This document shows, piece by piece, positions 3,283 through 47,519 of a DNA stretch of 64,000 nucleotides. Each line of letters begins with the position of its first letter. Positions within the stretch are counted from its first letter, which is position 1. The notes under the pieces were generated by a model, which saw only the letters and a list, made by a program, of their open reading frames with translations, was not told the DNA's origin and did no database searches. A program made the translations under genes and the position numbers. The stretch is from Myxococcota bacterium. Its GTDB lineage: Bacteria; Myxococcota_A; UBA9160; UBA4427. The stretch lies in the NCBI GenBank assembly GCA_030748735.1, contig JASMLK010000080.1, positions 16,697 through 80,696 on the forward strand, given 5' to 3'.

Positions 3283-5460
3283 CTAGAAGCGGAAGGTCCA
3301 GCCGAGCTTCGCGCGGGGTTCGGTCTCGCCGCGTTCCCAGTCCCCGTCGTCGATCACGACACCCTGGTTCAGGACCAGGAAGAACTCGCGACCAGGCTCG
3401 ATGATCCAGCGCAGTCGCGTGTTCACGCCGATCGAGTCGCTGTCCGAGTCGTACTGGGCAAAGGTATTCCACGACACTTCGGGGTTGAACTGGATGTCGA
3501 CGCGGAAGCTCGCGATGTGGACGACGAAGTCGCCGAAATCCAGGTCCACGTCCCTTCGGTCGTAGGCCGCCGTGAAGACCAGATGCTTCGAGGGGCGCCA
3601 CGCCACGCTCGGCTCGACATCGAATCGATCGCCCTCGTAGAAGCCGCTGGCGCTCACGATCAGCCCTACCGACACGGGGCGACCATCGCTCGATGCCATC
3701 TCGACAGACCAGCGATTCCACGAATAGCGGCCGGGTTCGATCGCGACATCGCTGCGCAACGCGAAGGGATCGTCGTGGTCCTCGAAGACCCGGGCGTACG
3801 TCACCTTGAAGGTGTCCCCGGCTGCATTGGCGAGGTCGACGGGGTCGAAGGTGATTTCGGCCGACTCGAAGTCGTCGTGGCTATCGGTGACCAGCGAAGT
3901 CGTCACGCGATGGTCGAGGGTACGCACGAAGCGTTCGGGCCGGTGCCGAAAGCGATAGCTCGTGTAGTAGTTCCGCGTGCCTCCGTTGCGGCTCCTGAAG
4001 CCGAGCGCCGGATTGAAGTTTTCCTGGATGCCTTCGGCAATCACGTACCAGTAGACCCGATCGTTCGGGTAGACGAGCCGTGTCCCCCATGCCCAATCGT
4101 CGGAATCGACACCGCTGGTGTGGCTGTGCTGGGCCCACAGGCGGCCCACCACCGTGCGATTCCCGAGGAAGTCGCTCTTGCGGTAGTTCGCATCGGCTCC
4201 GAGGACCCAGTTTTCGTCGTCGCTGTTGGGGTCGCCGTGGGTGAAGATCAGCCCCGCTGTCGATTCCTCCAACACGTTCACCGACGCCCGGGCGACCGCG
4301 AGGTTCTTCACGCCGATCTTTTCGCGGCGACCGTCCGCGTCCGGCAGGCGTTGGTACTTGTCCGTCACGACGTCGACGAAGCCGACGTTGAGAGGCCCCA
4401 CGCGTCCGGTGACCTTCGTTCCGACCAGGATCGGGATCTCTTCGCCTTGGTTGCTCAGGCCGATGCGCCGAGAGAAGTACGGCAGTGGGTTTCGTTGCAG
4501 TCCGCCGAAGTCGAAGATGCCCGCGTCCTGCAGGAAGAACTGCCGCTTTTCGGGGAAGAACAGCGATGAACGCGTGAGATTGATCTGGCGTTCGTCGACT
4601 TCCGCTTCGCCGAAGTCGGTATTGACCGTGAGTGCGCCCGTAAGCGAGGGCGTGATGCGGTAGAAAGCATCGACACCGGGATCGAAGTCGGTGTCCTTCT
4701 TACCGGTCTGCCCGTCGTCGGTGTGACGCAGCGCGAGTTTGGGCACGACGTCGAGGCCGATCCCCTGTCGGATCCCCACGAGCCCCTCGAGGTGCCCGTT
4801 GCCGTTCATGTTGAAGGCTTCGATCTCGGGGGTGGGACTGGCCCAGCGATCCTCTTCGCCGTTGCGCTTGGTGTAGCGGACGATCTGCATGCCCCAGGTC
4901 GTGCGATCGTCTGCGACCGACAATGTCTGGAACGGGATCGCGACCTCCACGGCCCAACCCTGTGCATCGACACGCGCGTCGGCATACCAGATGCCGTCCC
5001 ACTCGTAGGATTCGTCGCTGTTCTCGATCAGGCCGTCGCGCTTGTTGCCGAGGGGGTTGATCTCGAACTGGTAGCCATTGCGGCGGTCGAGGAAGGTGTC
5101 GAGGCTGATCGTGATGCGATCGTCGCTCGCCATGTCGCCGTCGCGCACCATCTTGCTCGCGATGATGTCGCGCGGATCGCTTTCGTGGGCACGCACCGCG
5201 ATGTAGAGGAAGTCGGCGTCGTAGAGGACCCACACTTCGGTGCGCTGCGACGCTTCGCCGTAGGCCACCGGGATCTTCTGGCGCAGCCCTTCGATTCGCC
5301 CCGCCTGCTGCCACGCGTCTTCGACGATGCGTCCGTCGATCTCGGGAGGGTTTTCCGTGCGAACGGCACGCACGTGAACCGACTCTTCCTGGAACCCGAA
5401 GGCCACGTGGGGGAGCAACCCGCACAGCCCCAGCGCGATCGAAAGACCGCGCATCCACAT
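3283..5460 (-). CDS. Outer-membrane protein, CBM9-like N-domain plus DUF5916-type beta-barrel
   Basis: Signal peptide MWMRGLSIALGLCGLLPHVAFG. DGRIVEDAW..YIAVRAHE resembles a CBM9-like domain. Long alternating beta-strand region ends in ..GWTFRF (C-terminal Phe). Start chosen at the MWMRG Met. Confidence 0.8.
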   Translation of the reverse strand: MWMRGLSIALGLCGLLPHVAFGFQEESVHVRAVRTENPPEIDGRIVEDAWQQAGRIEGLRQKIPVAYGEASQRTEVWVLYDADFLYIAVRAHESDPRDIIASKMVRDGDMASDDRITISLDTFLDRRNGYQFEINPLGNKRDGLIENSDESYEWDGIWYADARVDAQGWAVEVAIPFQTLSVADDRTTWGMQIVRYTKRNGEEDRWASPTPEIEAFNMNGNGHLEGLVGIRQGIGLDVVPKLALRHTDDGQTGKKDTDFDPGVDAFYRITPSLTGALTVNTDFGEAEVDERQINLTRSSLFFPEKRQFFLQDAGIFDFGGLQRNPLPYFSRRIGLSNQGEEIPILVGTKVTGRVGPLNVGFVDVVTDKYQRLPDADGRREKIGVKNLAVARASVNVLEESTAGLIFTHGDPNSDDENWVLGADANYRKSDFLGNRTVVGRLWAQHSHTSGVDSDDWAWGTRLVYPNDRVYWYVIAEGIQENFNPALGFRSRNGGTRNYYTSYRFRHRPERFVRTLDHRVTTSLVTDSHDDFESAEITFDPVDLANAAGDTFKVTYARVFEDHDDPFALRSDVAIEPGRYSWNRWSVEMASSDGRPVSVGLIVSASGFYEGDRFDVEPSVAWRPSKHLVFTAAYDRRDVDLDFGDFVVHIASFRVDIQFNPEVSWNTFAQYDSDSDSIGVNTRLRWIIEPGREFFLVLNQGVVIDDGDWERGETEPRAKLGWTFRF

Positions 5461-5555
5461 CGAGACACGTGCGATGCGCTCGCCGCATCGCGGACCGGAG
5501 GTTGTTCGTCCTGACTGCACCGCGAGCGACGTTAGCAGCCCGTCCTTCGACCGTT

Positions 5556-6791
5556 CTACGCGTCGGATTCACCCGCGCGCCGCCGGCGACGGGCTGCGAG
5601 TTCGAGCTTCATCGACTTCAAGATCAAGCGCGGCAACCCCAGTGGATGCTGGCGCAGCTTGCGAAGCACCAGACGCAGCATATGGCGACGGCCATCGAAG
5701 TTCGCTTCGCGTTGCCCGTGCCCCATGTGCATGCCGAGGGCCGGAACGTCGATCACGTCGAGTGGGAGTTCGAAGCGAAACGTCTCGGTTCGCGGTGGCA
5801 GGCAGATGTCGTCGTTGCAGGCCTGGTAGCGCACGCGGACTTCGACTTCGGCGCTCGTCATGTCGAGGGGGCGCGTCTCGCTCGCAAGAACTCCCGTGGG
5901 ATAGACGGGGACCACAACGTCGAAGTCGCCACTGAAGACCGGTAGCTCCATGCCCATGCTCTCGAGGCGGAGGATTTCTGGCTCTGGCATCTGCGGCGGC
6001 TCGACGGCGAGCCCCGGAGGCCCAGCCACGTCGACCTGCAGCGGGATCATGCCTTCGGGCACCGGTTCGCCGTAGACGTGCATGCCCGCTGAGAGTTCGC
6101 AGCGAACGACGATCTGACGAATGACGCCCTGGCGAAGCGTCGCGCTGCCGCCGTGGACGAAAGCCGTCACGCGAACTTCGTCATCACCACCGCTGGCGCG
6201 CGGGGCGTCGTCTGCGATCACAGCGCGACCGAAGGCAGCGTCGATCAGCACTTCGGGGCTATCGCGCTTCTTGTAGGTGTCGTGAAAGAACTTCGCGACC
6301 ACGACACCCGCTTCGTCGGTCACGTAGACGCCGGGGTACGCAATGCCGTGGAGGAAGGCGTCGTCCTTGCCGACCTGGTCGTTCAGGATGCCGTATCGGC
6401 GGATGACTTCGGAGTCGATGTCGGAGAGCAGCCGAAACGGGATGTCCTGCTTGGCCGCAAACTCGCGGAGCACGGGCTGGTCGTCGTACGAGATTGCGTA
6501 GAGCTCGATCCCCGCGTCTTCGAACTTCGCAAAGGCGTCGCGCAGCTCACCGAGCTGCGTCCAGCACGGGGGTCACCAGACCGCGGAGCGATAGAAGACC
6601 ACCACCGCCTTCGCGTTGCCACGCGTCTTGTGGAAGTCGACGGGAACGCCGTCCTTGTCGGGCAACACGAAATCCGGGAGACGTTCGCCCACCTCGGGGC
6701 CAGTCGGGTGCGCGTTGGGCAGCCCGGAGCGAGCGGGGTGCCCGAGCGGCGCCGGGGCATCGAAACCGTGATGGTCGCGTTCGATCGTCAT
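5556..6791 (-). CDS. Predicted selenoprotein: PRX_like (AhpC/TSA redoxin) domain with W-U-P-P-C active site, fused to a DsbD-alpha-like domain; in-frame TGA at 6573..6575
   Basis: ORFs 6573..6791 and 5556..6473 are in the same frame, separated only by TGA (99 nt = 33 codons to the next listed Met). Read-through gives ..AVVVFYRSAVW-U-PPCWTQLGELRDAFAKFEDAGIELYAISYDD... The C-terminal half carries YQACNDDICLPP, a DsbD-alpha-type motif. GAGGAAGG RBS lies before the ATG at 6791. Confidence 0.75.
6541..6559 (-). promoter_or_regulatory. bSECIS-like hairpin downstream of the UGA at 6573..6575
   Basis: RNA reads UGA + 13 nt + CGCAGCUC-GGU-GAGCUGCG. Perfect 8-bp stem with a G-containing apical loop. 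Confidence 0.6.
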
Positions 6792-6856: not shown

Positions 6857-7465
6857 TTACTGCATCGTAATCGCGGTCTGGAACGCCGGACGCTTTTCGA
6901 TGCGTCCGATGTACGCCTTCAGGTTCTTCAACTCGTCCGACACCTGTCCGAGGCGGTTCGCCATGAAGAGCGAATGCCCGAGCATGATGTCGGCGGCCGT
7001 GAAGTCACCCACGAGGTACTCACGCCCTTCGAGGGCTTCGTCGACGGGTGCAACCGCACGGCTCAACAGTCGCTGTGCCTGTCCCAACGCTTCTTCGTTG
7101 CGCCGTTCCGGTGGCAGCAACACCGTGTTGACCATGATGGTGTTGATCGGCGGCATCACCATGCCTTCGCAGTAATGGAACCACTGGAGGTATTCGGGGA
7201 ACTCGGGCGAGTCGATCGCCGGCTTGAGGCCACCATCGCCGTAGCGCGCCATCACATACTCGACGATCGCGCCAGATTCCCAGATACGCACGTCACCGTC
7301 GTCGAGCACGGGAATGCGACCGAGCGGATGCCGCGCGCGATGTTCGTCGGACTTCAGCTCCTTGGGATGGAAGGCCATCTTGTTGATCTCGTAGTCGAGA
7401 CCGAGTTCTTCGAACAGCCAGACGATGCGGCCCGCGCGCGAGTTGGGGGCGAAGTGGAGTTTCAT
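6857..7465 (-). CDS. Glutathione S-transferase
   Basis: MKLHFAPNSRAGRIVWLFEELGL..HPLGRIPVL..ESGAIVEY is a thioredoxin-like GST N-domain, followed by a helical C-domain. Start set at the Met preceded by AAGGA. Confidence 0.85.
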   Translation of the reverse strand: MKLHFAPNSRAGRIVWLFEELGLDYEINKMAFHPKELKSDEHRARHPLGRIPVLDDGDVRIWESGAIVEYVMARYGDGGLKPAIDSPEFPEYLQWFHYCEGMVMPPINTIMVNTVLLPPERRNEEALGQAQRLLSRAVAPVDEALEGREYLVGDFTAADIMLGHSLFMANRLGQVSDELKNLKAYIGRIEKRPAFQTAITMQ

Positions 7466-7498
7466 GAAGAGGGGTCCTTTGTAATGGCGCTCGTGTTG

Positions 7499-7514
7499 TG
7501 GCACTTAGAATGCC
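7499..7514 (+). promoter_or_regulatory. Sigma-54-type -24/-12 promoter candidate upstream of the MFS gene
   Basis: TGGCAC-TTAGA-ATGCC matches TGGCAC-N5-TTGC with correct GG..GC spacing. It lies on the same strand as, and upstream of, the transporter gene. Confidence 0.35.
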
Positions 7515-44391: not shown

Positions 44392-45582
44392 ATGACGAGC
44401 TTCGACTACGCCGCTAGCCCCGACCCCATCCGCAACGACCTGGCCGATGCCCATCGCCGGCAGTGGCAACGCATCGCCAACACAGGCACCTGGCTCACCG
44501 GCGCCCAGCGGGTCGCCGTGGCGGAGGAAACGCGATGGGCGCGCGACTGCGCGCTCTGCCGCGAGCGCAAACGGGCGCTCTCGCCCTTCGCAGTCGACGG
44601 CGAACACGATCATGCGGGCGTTCTTCCGGCACCGATGGTCGACGAAATCCACCGTGTCACGACCGACGCGGCGCGCCTTTCGCAGAAGTGGTTCGAGTCG
44701 TTGCTCGAGCAGGGCCTCAGCGCCGACGCATACGTCGAGGCTCTCGGCGTCGCGGTCTGCACGATCAGCATCGACGGCTTTCATCACGCGATGGGACTGC
44801 CCGTCGAACCCCTTCCCGAACCGAACGACGGCGAGCCGACACGCGAGCGCCCCGACGATCTCGTCGAAGGTGAAGCCTGGGTGCCGATGCGCGCACCGAA
44901 GGGCCTCAGTGCAGAACTCGGCCTTCCGGCCGGACAGGCGCCCTACGTGATTCGCGCGCTCTCACTCGTCCCCGCCGAAGTCCACGCCTGGGATGACCTC
45001 AGCGCCGCCCAGTACCTGAACAAGCAACAGATGATGCGCTTCGAAAAGGTCCGCGCGATCGACCGCTCACAGATCGAACTCGTGGCCGGCCGCGTCAGCG
45101 CACTCAACGAGTGTTTCTACTGAACGACTTCCCACGCGGTGATGCTCCGTGCGAGCATCGAGTATTCGGGAAGTGGCGGGCAGCTCGGTGGCATCACAGA
45201 GGGTTCCAAGGCGGGTGACGCGGGCATCGAGCATGGCGAACGACTTACGGCCTTCGCGGACGCAGCGGTTTCGGGTGACCCGGCAGCGCTGGCTACTGCG
45301 CGGGACGCCCTGCGCGAAGCGGCCGGGTCCGCGGTCGTCGTCGACGCCGCCGGCGTGATCGGCAACTTCCAGCGCATGGTGCGCATTGCAGACGGCTCGG
45401 GGATCCCCCTCGACACCATGGTCGACACGATGTCGTCCGACATCCGCGAAGACCTCGGCCTCGAGGGCTTCGAGAGCCGCAGGCTCGCCGAGCAGGGTGC
45501 GCTCGCGAAACTGTTTGCGCCGGTTGCGCGCGGGGCTGCAATGCTGGGACTGCGTATCGCGGGCCGGCGCGGACGTCGCTAG
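44392..45582 (+). CDS. Predicted selenoprotein: AhpD/carboxymuconolactone-decarboxylase (CMD)-core protein, in-frame TGA at 45121..45123 (C-x-x-U-x-x-x-H)
   Basis: ORFs 44392..45123 and 45139..45582 share a frame (747 nt offset). Read-through gives ..VSALNECFY-U-TTSHAVMLRASIEY.., which matches the AhpD C-x-x-C-x-x-x-H spacing with the His located after the TGA. GGAGG RBS present. Confidence 0.75.
45141..45159 (+). promoter_or_regulatory. bSECIS-like hairpin downstream of the UGA at 45121
   Basis: UGA + 17 nt + GAUGCUC-CGUGC-GAGCAUC. 7-bp stem with a 5-nt loop whose second base is G. Confidence 0.6.
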
Positions 45583-46415: not shown

Positions 46416-47519
46416 CTATCCGACGCCCAGAACGCGCGCGGGGGCCTTTGCGGGGTCGCCGCGTTCGATCTCGGTGTTGGCTGCTCCGCCGAACGCATTG
46501 AGCCCCAGGCGTTCGCGAAAGTCGGCCGAGCCGTGGAGCGTGCCCTCGTCGAGCGGGATCCCGCTCGAGTCGGCGGTGCGAACGAGCCCGTTGAAGATGC
46601 CCACGATGCCGCAGGCTTCCACGAAGCCCGCTTCACCCAGCGTCTTTCGCACGGCCTCACGTGCGGGGTCCATGTCGTCGTTGCCTCGCGTGACGGCTTC
46701 GGCGAAACGCACGAGGGCTTCGCCGTGTTCGATGTCGGAGGCACCCTCCCCGCCCACGGTGGCGTCGAGATTCACTTCCTGGCCAAGCTTGTCGCTGCTC
46801 GCACGGAGCAGACCCACATGGGAGGTCGTTCAGTAGAAGCATTCGTTGACGGCGCTGACCCGGGCCGCGATGAGTTCGGCTTGCGGGCGATCGAGCGGCC
46901 CTCCCCACTCCATGTCGTAGAAGCCGCCCGAGCCGTTGCTGTACATCGCCATCACGTTGGCGAAGAACAGTTGGTTCGCCGACGGTACGAGCGATAGCGC
47001 TCGCGCAACGTTGGGCCCCGTGAAGGGATCGATCATGGGCACGTGGGCGCCTGCGTCGGTTGCTTCGGCGAGTCGGCCGCCGTCGGGTTCACCGGGCTGC
47101 GGGTCCGGCAGCGGTTCGTGCGCGCGCCCCAGGGCTTCGCTGTACGCATCGATCGCACTCATGCAGGCCACGATCGAGATCAGTTCGACGTACGCGCCGT
47201 CACCCAGGGCTGCGATCTTCTTCGCCGCCCACTCGGAATCGATCTTGTGCGCATCGGCCGCGATCGTGCGTGCGGCGTCGACCGCGACTTCGGAGAGACG
47301 GCCTTCGGCGTCCGGAAGACCTTCGCGCAACCACGACGGGTCACCCCGCTTCGCCCGCGTGGCCCGCGCCTGGCGCGCGATCTCGAGGCGTTGTTCGCCC
47401 GTGAAGTACGAACCCGCATTCGCGATCTGCTGCCAACTGGTGCGGTGGACCTGCTGGATCGTGTCGCGTACCGCGAACCCGTCACGGTCGTAGGCGAAGG
47501 TCGAATCGAAGGACGTCAT
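46416..47519 (-). CDS. Predicted selenoprotein: second AhpD/CMD-core protein, in-frame TGA at 46830..46832
   Basis: ORFs 46830..47519 and 46416..46817 are in frame (12 nt apart). Read-through gives ..VSAVNECFY-U-TTSHVGLLRASSDKL... Paralog of 44392..45582, with the same MTSFD N-terminus and NECFYUTTSH core. GGAGG RBS present. Confidence 0.75.
46795..46811 (-). promoter_or_regulatory. bSECIS-like hairpin downstream of the UGA at 46830..46832
   Basis: UGA + 18 nt + CUGCUC-CGUGC-GAGCAG. The loop is identical to the paralog's. One stem pair differs by a compensatory A-U to C-G change. Confidence 0.6.

What the first reader, a model, noticed from the sequence alone, without database searches (positions are those of the whole stretch)
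5556..6791. Fusion selenoprotein: Prx-like redoxin (W-U-P-P-C) joined to a DsbD-alpha-like domain, with no signal peptide
ORF 6573..6791 ends ..VVVFYRSAVW at TGA, and the same frame continues PPCWTQLGELRDAFAKFEDAGIELYAISYDD.. into ORF 5556..6473. This rebuilds the FYR..W-C-P-x-C motif of PRX_like thioredoxin-fold proteins with Sec as the first residue. A perfect 8-bp hairpin CGCAGCUC-GGU-GAGCUGCG starts 13 nt after the UGA.

The C-terminal ~200 aa contain YQACNDDICLPP, which recalls the YQGCADAGFCYPP cysteine pair of E. coli DsbD-alpha. It ends in a basic amphipathic tail. A Sec redoxin covalently fused to a DsbD-alpha-type electron-acceptor domain, apparently cytoplasmic, is an unusual architecture. 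It lies 38 kb from the island, which indicates a Sec-rich genome.
Basis: partly seen in the sequence, partly recalled or inferred. Interest (0 to 1): 0.75.

Follow-up and report, generated by a model that had tools for sequence, protein, structure and literature searches.

The report
Selenocysteine redoxin fused to DsbD-alpha-like domain
This is a real 411-residue selenoprotein gene, read through one UGA codon, that joins a peroxiredoxin-like selenol/thiol redox domain to a DsbD-alpha-type cysteine-pair domain with no export signal. The selenoprotein family was already catalogued in ocean metagenomes in 2008, but I found no published description of its fused second domain.

Summary
On the minus strand, 6791..5556 is one reading frame with a single in-frame TGA (6575..6573, codon 73) inside W-U-P-P-C. 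Pfam AhpC-TSA (3e-30) spans the TGA, and DsbD_N (1e-11) covers residues 225-340.

In 75 to 77 of 80 related genome loci the same TGA sits at the same codon, 72 codons after the start. These come from marine Myxococcota, Halieaceae, Pseudomonadales and Alphaproteobacteria. None has Cys at that position, and none has a signal peptide.

The hairpin 13 nt after the UGA is conserved. Synonymous variation is suppressed in its stem, one pair shows compensatory changes, and the loop always contains GGU.

An AlphaFold model of the C-terminal half is a beta sandwich. Its best PDB matches are DsbD-alpha and ScsB-alpha, and the Cys pair aligns with the DsbD-alpha YQGC...C motif.

Sec occupies the Thr position of the peroxiredoxin PxxxTxxC motif, and the catalytic Pro, Thr and Arg are absent. 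It is therefore a CxxC-type redoxin, not a canonical peroxidase.

Reads from this clade are listed under "Prx-like 1" selenoproteins in Zhang and Gladyshev 2008. More distant Cys forms, some secreted, share the two-domain architecture.

Most likely it is a self-contained selenol/thiol relay. That mechanism is inferred, not shown.

The parts
5556..6791 (-). Complete selenoprotein gene: 411 codons plus TAG stop, with Sec at codon 73. Public gene calls truncate it to the 305-aa ORF 5556..6473.
   Evidence: P0001 is 100% identical and is called as 305 aa; the same layout occurs in 75 to 77 of 80 loci.
6573..6575 (-). In-frame TGA read as selenocysteine (U73) within W-U-P-P-C. C76 is at 6564..6566.
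   Evidence: TGA at this codon in every intact homologous locus. Cys at the aligned position in distant homologues (AAWCPFC, ADWCPYC); invariant in 68 full-length sequences.
6541..6559 (-). Bacterial SECIS-type hairpin inside the coding sequence. The 8-bp stem is 6559..6552 / 6548..6541, the loop GGU is 6551..6549, and it starts 13 nt after the UGA.
   Evidence: Third-position entropy in the stem is 0, 0.53, 0.92, 0 and 0.55 bits, against 1.3-1.96 at flanking four-fold sites. The ACG wobble is G in 75/75 and the GAG wobble is G in 75/75. Pair 20-30 is GC 49, GU 17, AU 7, AC 2. GGU lies in or next to the loop in all sequences.
6693..6791 (-). Conserved N-terminal extension (residues 1-33, MT[IV]ERDxxGFDAPAPLGHPGRxGLP). 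It is not hydrophobic and is not a signal peptide.
   Evidence: the start is 72 codons before the Sec in nearly all loci; the maximum Kyte-Doolittle 15-residue window in the first 70 aa is 0.93. E4, D6, G9, F10, A12, P13 and R21 are invariant.
6294..6692 (-). Peroxiredoxin-like thioredoxin-fold domain (AhpC-TSA, residues 34-166) with a UxxC motif. The peroxiredoxin catalytic Pro, Thr and Arg are replaced.
   Evidence: a Cys-form homologue model matches BCP and AhpE structures; in the alignment to A. pernix BCP 2cx3, Ser is at the Pro position, U at the Ser/Thr position, C76 at the peroxidatic Cys and Ser at the Arg position.
5760..6200 (-). DsbD-alpha-type immunoglobulin-like beta sandwich (residues 198-344). 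Its invariant Cys pair C325-x4-C330 lies in YQACNDDICLPP (5793..5828).
   Evidence: DsbD_N, 1.3e-11. AF2 pLDDT above 95 over the sandwich; top PDB matches are DsbD-alpha and ScsB-alpha. Cys-to-Cys alignment with YQGCADAgFCYPP; both Cys are invariant.
5706..5729 (-). Invariant His-containing motif H-x-G-H-G-Q-R-E (residues 355-362) in a low-confidence linker. Its function is unknown.
   Evidence: H355, G357, H358, G359 and Q360 are invariant in 68 sequences; pLDDT is about 52 here.
5562..5693 (-). Two predicted basic amphipathic helices (residues 367-381 and 385-410). They are specific to the roughly 410-aa Sec clade.
   Evidence: helices with pLDDT 87-95; charge and hydrophobic moment; absent from the shorter relatives.
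6857..7504 (-). Glutathione S-transferase gene 65 nt upstream on the same strand. It is a possible co-transcribed partner. This is context, not a proven part of the system.
   Evidence: GST_N and GST_C domains. GST-superfamily genes lie within 4 kb in 14 of 78 loci and are directly adjacent in about 9.

Best explanation
Shown: the gene encodes one 411-residue protein whose codon 73 (UGA) is decoded as selenocysteine. Decoding is directed by a conserved hairpin 13 nt downstream, inside the coding sequence. The protein has four parts:
- a conserved non-hydrophobic N-terminal extension;
- a peroxiredoxin-like thioredoxin-fold domain with W-U73-P-P-C76;
- a DsbD-alpha-type beta sandwich with the pair C325/C330;
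- an invariant HxGHGQRE motif followed by two basic amphipathic helices.
It has no signal peptide or transmembrane segment, so it should stay on the cytoplasmic side. The helices may hold it at the membrane surface.

Inferred: it works as a self-contained selenol/thiol-disulfide relay. Sec73 sits where the exposed N-terminal Cys of a CxxC redoxin sits, and it attacks an oxidised substrate (a disulfide, a sulfenic acid or possibly a hydroperoxide). Cys76 resolves the adduct into a U73-C76 selenenylsulfide. The fused DsbD-alpha-like dithiol C325/C330 then reduces that bond, in the way free DsbD-alpha or ScsB-alpha reduce CcmG-, TlpA- or PrxL-type redoxins in trans. A cytoplasmic thioredoxin-fold donor (thioredoxin or a glutathione/GST-linked system) finally re-reduces the beta-sandwich pair. 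The terminal substrate is unknown.
For: Identity and recoding:
- AhpC-TSA spans the TGA and DsbD_N follows it.
- The TGA sits at the same codon in 75 to 77 of 80 species-level genomes, with conserved protein sequence on both sides and a fixed start 72 codons upstream.
- Distant homologues have Cys at this position.
- The hairpin is conserved, with suppressed synonymous variation, 7 compensatory A-U pairs and a constant GGU loop.
- Two other selenoprotein genes lie in the same window.

Redoxin rather than peroxidase:
- U aligns with the Thr/Ser of PxxxTxxC, C76 aligns with the peroxidatic Cys, and the catalytic Pro and Arg are both replaced by Ser.
- ResA, DsbE and TlpA structures are also among the sequence hits.

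DsbD-alpha module:
- The fold matches DsbD-alpha and ScsB-alpha.
- The active-site Cys pair aligns with that of E. coli DsbD-alpha.
- All four redox residues are invariant, across 68 full-length sequences and across the wider family.

Precedent for the relay: ScsB, through its alpha domain, keeps the peroxiredoxin-like1 protein PrxL reduced. PrxL has no detectable peroxidase activity (PMC3322552).

Fixed two-domain packing: the Cys-form model has pTM 0.88 and pLDDT 92.

Cytoplasmic side: there is no hydrophobic N-terminus or transmembrane stretch in 76 proteins.

Possible glutathione link: three different types of GST gene lie next to the gene in different lineages.
Against: - No experiment bears on this protein. 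Neither Sec incorporation nor any activity has been shown.
- I could not read model coordinates, so the distance between U73/C76 and C325/C330 is unknown. The direction of electron flow cannot be derived from sequence.
- No conserved neighbour gene points to a donor or a substrate. GST adjacency occurs in only 14 of 78 loci.
- No selA, selB, selC or selD was seen in the window (no tRNA), so Sec machinery is inferred only from the other selenoprotein genes.
- The folding energy of the local RNA is not exceptional.
- Absence of a signal peptide does not exclude non-classical export.
- A selenol can reduce peroxides without the Prx Arg/Thr, so peroxidase activity is not excluded.
Confidence: 0.55

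Rival explanations
1. It is a selenium-dependent hydroperoxide reductase. Sec73 is the peroxide-attacking residue, as in GPx or Sec-Prx. Cys76 resolves the selenenic acid, and the DsbD-alpha-like domain is the built-in recycling module, comparable to Prx-Grx hybrids or AhpC with AhpF. The amphipathic tail would place it on the membrane to act on lipid hydroperoxides.
For: The best sequence and structure matches of the N-domain are the BCP/PrxQ and AhpE peroxiredoxins. The family is exclusively Sec in its main clade, as expected where a very fast, over-oxidation-resistant nucleophile is needed. The tail is basic and amphipathic.
Against: Three of the four peroxiredoxin catalytic residues are missing, and Sec sits at the Thr position rather than the peroxidatic Cys position. 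The related Prx-like1 protein PrxL had no detectable peroxidase activity (PMC3322552).
Confidence: 0.25
2. Electron flow runs the other way. The Sec redoxin plays the role of DsbD-gamma: it is reduced by a cytoplasmic system and in turn reduces the DsbD-alpha-like pair. The beta sandwich is then the substrate-facing module that reduces client thioredoxin-fold proteins.
For: In DsbD the alpha domain is the module that contacts many different clients, and it receives electrons from a thioredoxin-fold domain. The solved complexes 1vrs and 1jzd appear among the structural matches. The geometry of the alpha/CxxC exchange is the same in both directions (established DsbD biochemistry, from my own knowledge).
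Against: No client-type gene is conserved nearby. Sec at the exposed nucleophile position of UxxC is more typical of the substrate-attacking end of a pathway (my own knowledge, not tested here).
Confidence: 0.12
3. The beta sandwich is not redox-coupled to the redoxin. Its Cys pair forms a structural disulfide or a metal (for example copper) site together with the invariant His residues, and the domain serves for binding or oligomerisation.
For: H238, H355 and H358 are invariant, and the window protein has a Met/His-rich stretch MHMGHG. Scs and DsbD systems are linked to copper stress (PMC10907172, title and abstract only).
Against: A structural disulfide is unlikely in a cytoplasmic protein. 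The Cys pair aligns exactly with the catalytic pair of DsbD-alpha. It is invariant even in relatives that lack the His motif and the tail.
Confidence: 0.06
4. The TGA is a true stop. The locus would then be two genes, or a pseudogene, producing a 72-residue peptide and a separately initiated 305-residue protein.
For: Every public gene call treats it this way (120 of 120 top hits are N-terminally truncated). No Sec machinery gene was identified in the window.
Against: The thioredoxin fold would be split through its active site. The TGA codon and both flanks are conserved in 75 to 77 genomes from several phyla, with synonymous variation typical of coding sequence. Homologues have Cys at the site. 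The downstream hairpin is conserved. Other UGA-containing selenoprotein genes are present nearby.
Confidence: 0.02

Closest known systems
'Prx-like 1' / 'Prx-like thiol:disulfide oxidoreductase' selenoproteins (Zhang & Gladyshev 2008, PMC2398784; listed in the 2026 review PMC13188914)
   Same: Both have a PF00578 fold with a UxxC motif. Reads of this exact clade (..FYRSAVWUPPCWTQLGELRD..) are in that paper's Dataset S1 under '#Prx-like 1'.
   Different: That family is a broad bin (225 Sec and 2,740 Cys sequences in GOS) made up mostly of single-domain proteins. The DsbD-alpha-like domain, the HxGHGQRE motif and the helical tail are not among the fusions the paper lists. The short reads did not reach the Cys pair.
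DsbD-alpha / ScsB-alpha with their thioredoxin-fold partners (CcmG, TlpA, PrxL, DsbD-gamma)
   Same: Both have an immunoglobulin-like sandwich with a YQxC...CxPP redox pair. The partner is a TlpA- or Prx-like WCxxC redoxin. ScsB keeps PrxL reduced (PMC3322552).
   Different: Here the two partners are fused in one chain and lack an export signal. There is no DsbD-beta membrane domain. The loop is C-x4-C rather than C-x5-C, and the redoxin nucleophile is Sec.
BCP/PrxQ and AhpE peroxiredoxins
   Same: These are the closest solved folds and sequences for the N-domain: 2cx3 at E = 6.5e-18, and 3hjp and 1xxu at TM about 0.8.
   Different: The catalytic Pro, Thr and Arg are absent. Sec replaces the Thr, and the conserved Cys is retained as the second residue of a UxxC motif.
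Cys-containing AhpC-TSA + DsbD_N proteins of uncultured bacteria (for example Dehalococcoidia MAG 'redoxin domain-containing protein')
   Same: They share the two-domain order, the W-C-P-x-C and YQAC-x4-C motifs, and 30-39% identity.
   Different: They are 260-360 aa and lack the HxGHGQRE motif and the helical tail. Some carry signal peptides (P0199, P0242, P0246, P0256). They have Cys, or occasionally Ser or Trp, at the Sec position. Many of these shorter relatives also appear to be Sec forms, one of which was verified (L081).

Membership tests
Bacterial selenoprotein gene (UGA recoded as Sec) | In-frame UGA at a conserved position, with conserved coding sequence on both sides | tested here: met
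   the TGA sits at the same codon in 75 to 77 of 80 loci. Both flanks are conserved, with synonymous third-position variation.
Bacterial selenoprotein gene (UGA recoded as Sec) | Cys-containing homologues aligned at the Sec position | tested here: met
   P0145, P0157, P0168, P0199, P0242 and P0256 have W-C-P-x-C.
Bacterial selenoprotein gene (UGA recoded as Sec) | Stem-loop just downstream of the UGA with G in the apical loop (bSECIS) | tested here: met
   a conserved stem of 6-8 bp starts 13 nt after the UGA, with a loop containing GGU, suppressed synonymous change and 7 compensatory pairs. No Rfam model matched. SelB binding was not tested.
Bacterial selenoprotein gene (UGA recoded as Sec) | selA/selB/selC/selD present in the same genome | not testable with these tools
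   There is no tRNA in the window and the rest of the genome is not available. Indirect support comes from two further CFYUT selenoprotein genes in the window.
Prx-like 1 (UxxC) selenoprotein family | PF00578 domain with a UxxC motif at the start of the first helix | tested here: met
   AhpC-TSA scores 105 bits against a cutoff of 26; clade members are listed under this family.
Peroxiredoxin proper (PxxxTxxC plus Arg) | Conserved Pro, Thr/Ser, peroxidatic Cys and Arg | tested here: not met
   in the alignment to 2cx3, Pro is replaced by Ser, Thr/Ser by Sec and Arg by Ser. Only the Cys is retained. All NCBIfam peroxiredoxin equivalogs score far below their cutoffs.
DsbD_N (PF11412) / DsbD-alpha | Pfam score above the gathering threshold | tested here: met
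   45.0 bits against 25, covering profile positions 20-117 of 119.
DsbD_N (PF11412) / DsbD-alpha | Immunoglobulin-like beta-sandwich fold | tested here: met
   pLDDT 90.6; the top Foldseek hits are 3pfu, 1l6p, 6c29, 1jzd_C, 1vrs and 6dnv, with target-normalised TM of 0.56-0.64 for the DsbD-alpha hits and 0.37 for ScsB 6c29.
DsbD_N (PF11412) / DsbD-alpha | Redox Cys pair in the YQGC...C-x-P-P motif | tested here: met
   the pair is aligned Cys to Cys, with a loop one residue shorter. It is invariant. Its redox activity was not tested.
DsbD / ScsB / CcdA membrane electron transporter | Periplasmic location, with linkage to a DsbD-beta transmembrane domain | tested here: not met
   no signal peptide and no transmembrane segment; no DsbD transmembrane domain hit; no conserved neighbouring membrane partner.

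The most novel reading that the evidence does not exclude
The roughly 410-residue clade may be a distinct, obligately selenium-dependent cytoplasmic reductase system. In it, a DsbD-alpha-type adaptor domain, so far characterised only in the cell envelope, has been moved to the cytoplasmic side and fused to its redoxin partner. It may be docked on the inner face of the membrane by a basic helical hairpin and fed by a glutathione/GST-linked donor. This would be the first DsbD-alpha module working outside the envelope. It would also be a widespread marine redox enzyme with an as yet unknown substrate.
Probability: 0.3. Interest if true: 0.65.

Novelty: new variant of a known kind. Interest (0 to 1): 0.45.

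Why it matters
**Annotation.** Every public gene call I saw truncates this protein at the UGA: 120 of 120 top database hits, including entries named 'redoxin domain-containing protein'. No NCBIfam model reaches its cutoff. A conserved selenoprotein present in at least 150 species-level marine genomes is therefore systematically mis-annotated.

**Biology.** The protein fuses in one chain two modules that are known to exchange electrons in trans in the cell envelope. This gives a simple system for testing three things:
- how a DsbD-alpha fold recognises and reduces a redoxin;
- what selenium adds to that exchange;
- whether such relays also operate in the cytoplasm.

The main clade uses only Sec, across several phyla. 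This suggests that selenium is functionally required there, which bears on selenium demand in marine bacteria.

Tried and rejected
- **Rfam.** The gathering scan of the whole window found nothing. The permissive scan around the hairpin gave only two irrelevant weak hits. This does not count against a SECIS, since no match means only that no Rfam model reached threshold here.
- **Folding energy.** The 101-nt region around the UGA folds no better than shuffles (z = 0.07). I therefore relied on conservation rather than energy.
- **Conserved neighbours.** All-against-all clustering of ORFs within 4 kb in 78 loci found no conserved partner. The largest non-self cluster is a generic SDR present in 14 loci. 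Only a loose association with GST genes emerged.
- **Single-sequence PDB search.** A phmmer search with the C-domain alone found nothing relevant. A profile was needed.
- **Full-length protein with Sec replaced by Cys.** I used three substitutes: the post-UGA part of the protein, a Cys-form homologue and the window's own C-terminal half.
- **Model coordinates.** These are not exposed, so the distance between the redox centres could not be measured.
- **afdb50.** The library was unavailable.
- **Canonical Sec-peroxiredoxin (TxxU).** I rejected this reading because Sec is at the Thr position and the catalytic Arg and Pro are missing.
- **Envelope protein.** I rejected this because no homologue in the clade has a signal peptide.
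Full report
**1. The observation**

On the minus strand the frame that starts at ATG 6791 runs to TAG 5558..5556. It contains one internal stop, TGA at 6575..6573 (codon 73). The context is ..AVVVFYRSAVW-TGA-PPCWTQLGELRDAF... The ATG is preceded by GAGGAAGGG. It is the first possible start after the upstream stop in that frame.

The hairpin CGCAGCUC-GGU-GAGCUGCG occupies 6559..6541 and begins 13 nt after the UGA. In this GC-rich window a perfect 8-bp hairpin begins at about 1 position in 1,900. The chance of one starting within an 18-nt range after a given TGA is therefore about 0.01. The folding energy of the surrounding 101 nt is not exceptional (z = 0.07).

With Sec written as Cys, Pfam gives AhpC-TSA over residues 34-166 (3.1e-30), spanning the TGA. 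It gives DsbD_N over residues 225-340 (1.3e-11, 45 bits against a cutoff of 25).

**2. Recoding is conserved**

A database search with the full protein returned 586 relatives. All of the best 120 are 272-333 aa and cover only 64-80% of the query, so they were called from a start just after the TGA.

A scan of one genome per species found 150 relatives, and I fetched 80 loci. They come from these groups:
- marine Myxococcota;
- Halieaceae, Halioglobus and Luminiphilus;
- other Pseudomonadales;
- Rhodospirillaceae and other Alphaproteobacteria;
- the isolate HTCC2143.

Translating upstream in frame shows ..F[YF]RSAVW-TGA-PPC[WM]TQL.. in every locus where the region is intact. The exceptions are:
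- L061, which sits at a contig edge;
- L069, which is frameshifted;
- L019, whose 5' part is replaced;
- L016, which is frameshifted further upstream but keeps the TGA.

No locus has Cys at this position. In almost all loci the start codon lies exactly 72 codons before the TGA. The N-terminus MT[IV]ERDxxGFDAPAPLGHPGRxGLP is conserved, and total length is about 402-414 aa.

First and second codon positions upstream of the TGA are invariant, while third positions vary freely at 1.45-1.9 bits. This is the signature of translated sequence.

More distant homologues have Cys at the aligned site, for example AAWCPFCRTQ and ADWCPYCK.

The window also holds two AhpD-related selenoprotein genes with the motif NECFY-TGA-TTSH, at 44392..45501 (+) and 46440..47519 (-). 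The organism therefore decodes UGA as Sec. No Sec-machinery gene or tRNA was seen in the window itself.

**3. The hairpin behaves as a SECIS**

I compared 75 aligned sequences.
- The Thr codon in the 5' arm is ACG in 75 of 75, and the Glu codon in the 3' arm is GAG in 75 of 75.
- Third-position entropy in the stem is 0, 0.53, 0.92, 0 and 0.55 bits. At flanking four-fold sites it is 1.3-1.96 bits.
- Pair 20-30 is G-C 49, G-U 17, A-U 7 and A-C 2. Seven of the nine sequences with G-to-A at position 20 carry the matching C-to-U at position 30.
- 48 sequences keep all 8 pairs, 24 keep 7 and 3 keep 6.
- The apical loop always contains GGU, as GGU, AGGUG or GGUCG.

Spacing and a G-containing loop fit what is known of bacterial SECIS elements (my own knowledge of E. 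coli fdhF). Rfam has no matching model.

Part of the extreme conservation of the peptide TQLGELR is probably imposed by the RNA.

**4. What the domains are**

*N-terminal domain.* The closest solved sequences are BCP/PrxQ and AhpE peroxiredoxins, followed by ResA, DsbE and TlpA. A model of a Cys-form homologue (P0145; pLDDT 92.4, pTM 0.88) superposes on BCP and AhpE at TM about 0.8.

The residue-by-residue alignment to A. pernix BCP (2cx3) gives these correspondences:
- Ser69 at the peroxiredoxin Pro;
- Sec73 at the Thr/Ser of PxxxTxxC;
- Cys76 at the peroxidatic Cys;
- an invariant Ser at the catalytic Arg.

This is the CxxC-redoxin arrangement, with Sec as the exposed first residue. It is not a canonical peroxiredoxin. 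All NCBIfam peroxiredoxin and selenoprotein models score far below their cutoffs.

*C-terminal half.* An AlphaFold model of the window's own residues 192-411 (pLDDT 90.6) has three parts:
- a beta sandwich (residues 198-344, pLDDT above 95);
- a poorly defined linker containing HMGHGQRE;
- two helices (residues 367-381 and 385-410).

Its best PDB matches are the DsbD N-terminal domains of E. coli and Neisseria and the ScsB N-terminal domain. A profile of this domain finds only E. coli DsbD-alpha in the PDB. The alignment is vevrYQACdde.vCllP against ltvtYQGCADAgFCYPP, so C325 and C330 fall on the catalytic pair with a loop one residue shorter.

U73, C76, C325, C330, H238, H355 and H358 are invariant in 68 full-length sequences. 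The two sandwich cysteines are invariant across the wider family.

The tail is basic (mean net charge +10.5) and strongly amphipathic.

*Location.* No member has a hydrophobic N-terminus or a transmembrane stretch.

**5. Wider family and prior knowledge**

An exhaustive profile-free search found 1,805 relatives. The closest representatives (45-55% identity) keep the tail and again start right after the CxxC position. Further out (30-40% identity) the proteins are 250-360 aa and have no tail. They fall into three groups:
- Cys forms without a signal peptide (P0145, P0157 and P0168, the last from Dehalococcoidia MAGs);
- Cys forms with signal peptides (P0199, P0242, P0246, P0256);
- many N-terminally truncated calls. 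I checked one of these and it is a Sec form with a similar hairpin (L081).

The AhpC-TSA plus DsbD_N architecture is therefore widespread. It occurs on both sides of the membrane and with either Sec or Cys. The window's clade is the Sec-only branch that carries the tail.

On prior knowledge, the supplementary sequence file of Zhang and Gladyshev 2008 (PMC2398784) has 10 occurrences of the motif WUPPCW, and the reads shown in the passages returned carry ..RSAVWUPPCWTQLGELRD... They fall in the part of the file headed '#Prx-like 1'. The selenoprotein was therefore already catalogued.

Their list of domain fusions does not include this one, and the reads end before the Cys pair. The 2026 review lists Prx-like thiol:disulfide oxidoreductase as a predicted selenoprotein. 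Its only mention of DsbD concerns a different protein, TsoB. A full-text search for 'selenoprotein' together with 'DsbD' found no paper describing this fusion. JGI's automatic annotation does show both Pfam domains on the truncated calls.

**6. Mechanism**

*Shown.* The protein contains a Sec-containing CxxC-type redoxin, a DsbD-alpha-type domain with its catalytic Cys pair, no export signal and a basic amphipathic tail.

*Inferred.* The two modules exchange electrons. The precedent is the envelope system. There the alpha domain of DsbD or ScsB reduces TlpA-, CcmG- or PrxL-type redoxins and is itself reduced by a thioredoxin-fold domain. ScsB keeps the Prx-like1 protein PrxL reduced, and PrxL has no detectable peroxidase activity (PMC3322552).

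I therefore favour this sequence:
1. Sec73 attacks the oxidised substrate.
2. Cys76 resolves the adduct to a selenenylsulfide.
3. C325/C330 reduce that bond.
4. A cytoplasmic thioredoxin-fold donor recharges the sandwich.

The alternating fold order (thioredoxin fold, Ig fold, thioredoxin fold) mirrors DsbD.

The donor may be linked to glutathione. GST-superfamily genes of three different types lie within 4 kb in 14 of 78 loci and directly adjacent in about 9. These include the window's own upstream gene 6857..7504, and in L026 the reading frame runs on into a YghU-like GST. This is suggestive only. No other neighbour is conserved.

The direction of flow, the terminal substrate and the roles of the HxGHGQRE motif and the tail remain open. 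A selenol-based peroxidase activity is the main rival.

**7. Verdict**

It needs three corrections:
- Sec is at the Thr position of the peroxiredoxin motif;
- the selenoprotein family was already known;
- the two-domain architecture is shared with Cys and secreted relatives.

Three things appear not to have been described:
- the conserved full architecture of about 410 residues;
- its exclusive use of Sec across several marine phyla;
- the presence of a DsbD-alpha-type module on a protein without an export signal.

I rate it a new variant of a known kind, of moderate interest.

Noticed in passing
window 44392..45501 (+) and 46440..47519 (-): There are two paralogous AhpD-related selenoprotein genes (NCBIfam AhpD_rel_CFYUT). 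Each has an in-frame TGA in NECFY-U-TTSH, and each is split by ORF calling into a 243-aa or 229-aa N-terminal ORF plus a C-terminal remainder.
   Followed up: partly
L077:4951-5763 (-), and the equivalent position in 7 other Halieaceae loci: A second selenoprotein gene converges tail-to-tail on the homologue of this gene. It encodes a membrane-anchored Prx-like protein with a hydrophobic N-terminal region and FFRAHW-U-PYC. The same protein appears next to this family in the GOS Prx-like 1 sequence list.
   Followed up: partly
L026:3992-5920 (+) (Halieaceae MAG contig_2): Here the homologue has no stop after the basic tail. The frame runs on for about 30 codons into a YghU-like glutathione S-transferase, giving a 725-aa ORF. 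This is either a natural fusion or a lost stop or assembly error.
   Followed up: no
window 6857..7504 (-); also L001, L002, L003, L005, L006, L012, L017 and L055: GST-superfamily genes of three different types lie directly next to the gene, mostly co-directional, in several unrelated lineages. In all, 14 of 78 loci have one within 4 kb.
   Followed up: partly
L019 (Halioglobus chromosome OZ253569.1), upstream of position 4001: The 5' third of the gene, up to the SECIS region, is replaced by unrelated AT-rich sequence. This may be an insertion or deletion breakpoint at the hairpin.
   Followed up: no
protein P0137 (616 aa): This is a tandem duplication of the whole AhpC-TSA plus DsbD_N unit in one chain. 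The second unit has S-S-Y-C in place of C/U-x-x-C, and the first starts right after the motif, so it is probably another Sec form.
   Followed up: no
window 3283..5520 (-): The downstream neighbour is a 745-aa protein with a hydrophobic N-terminal stretch (LSIALGLCGLLPHVAFG) that looks like a signal peptide, and with CBM9-like and DUF5916 domains. It starts 35 nt after the stop of the selenoprotein gene, on the same strand. It is not conserved next to the homologues.
   Followed up: partly
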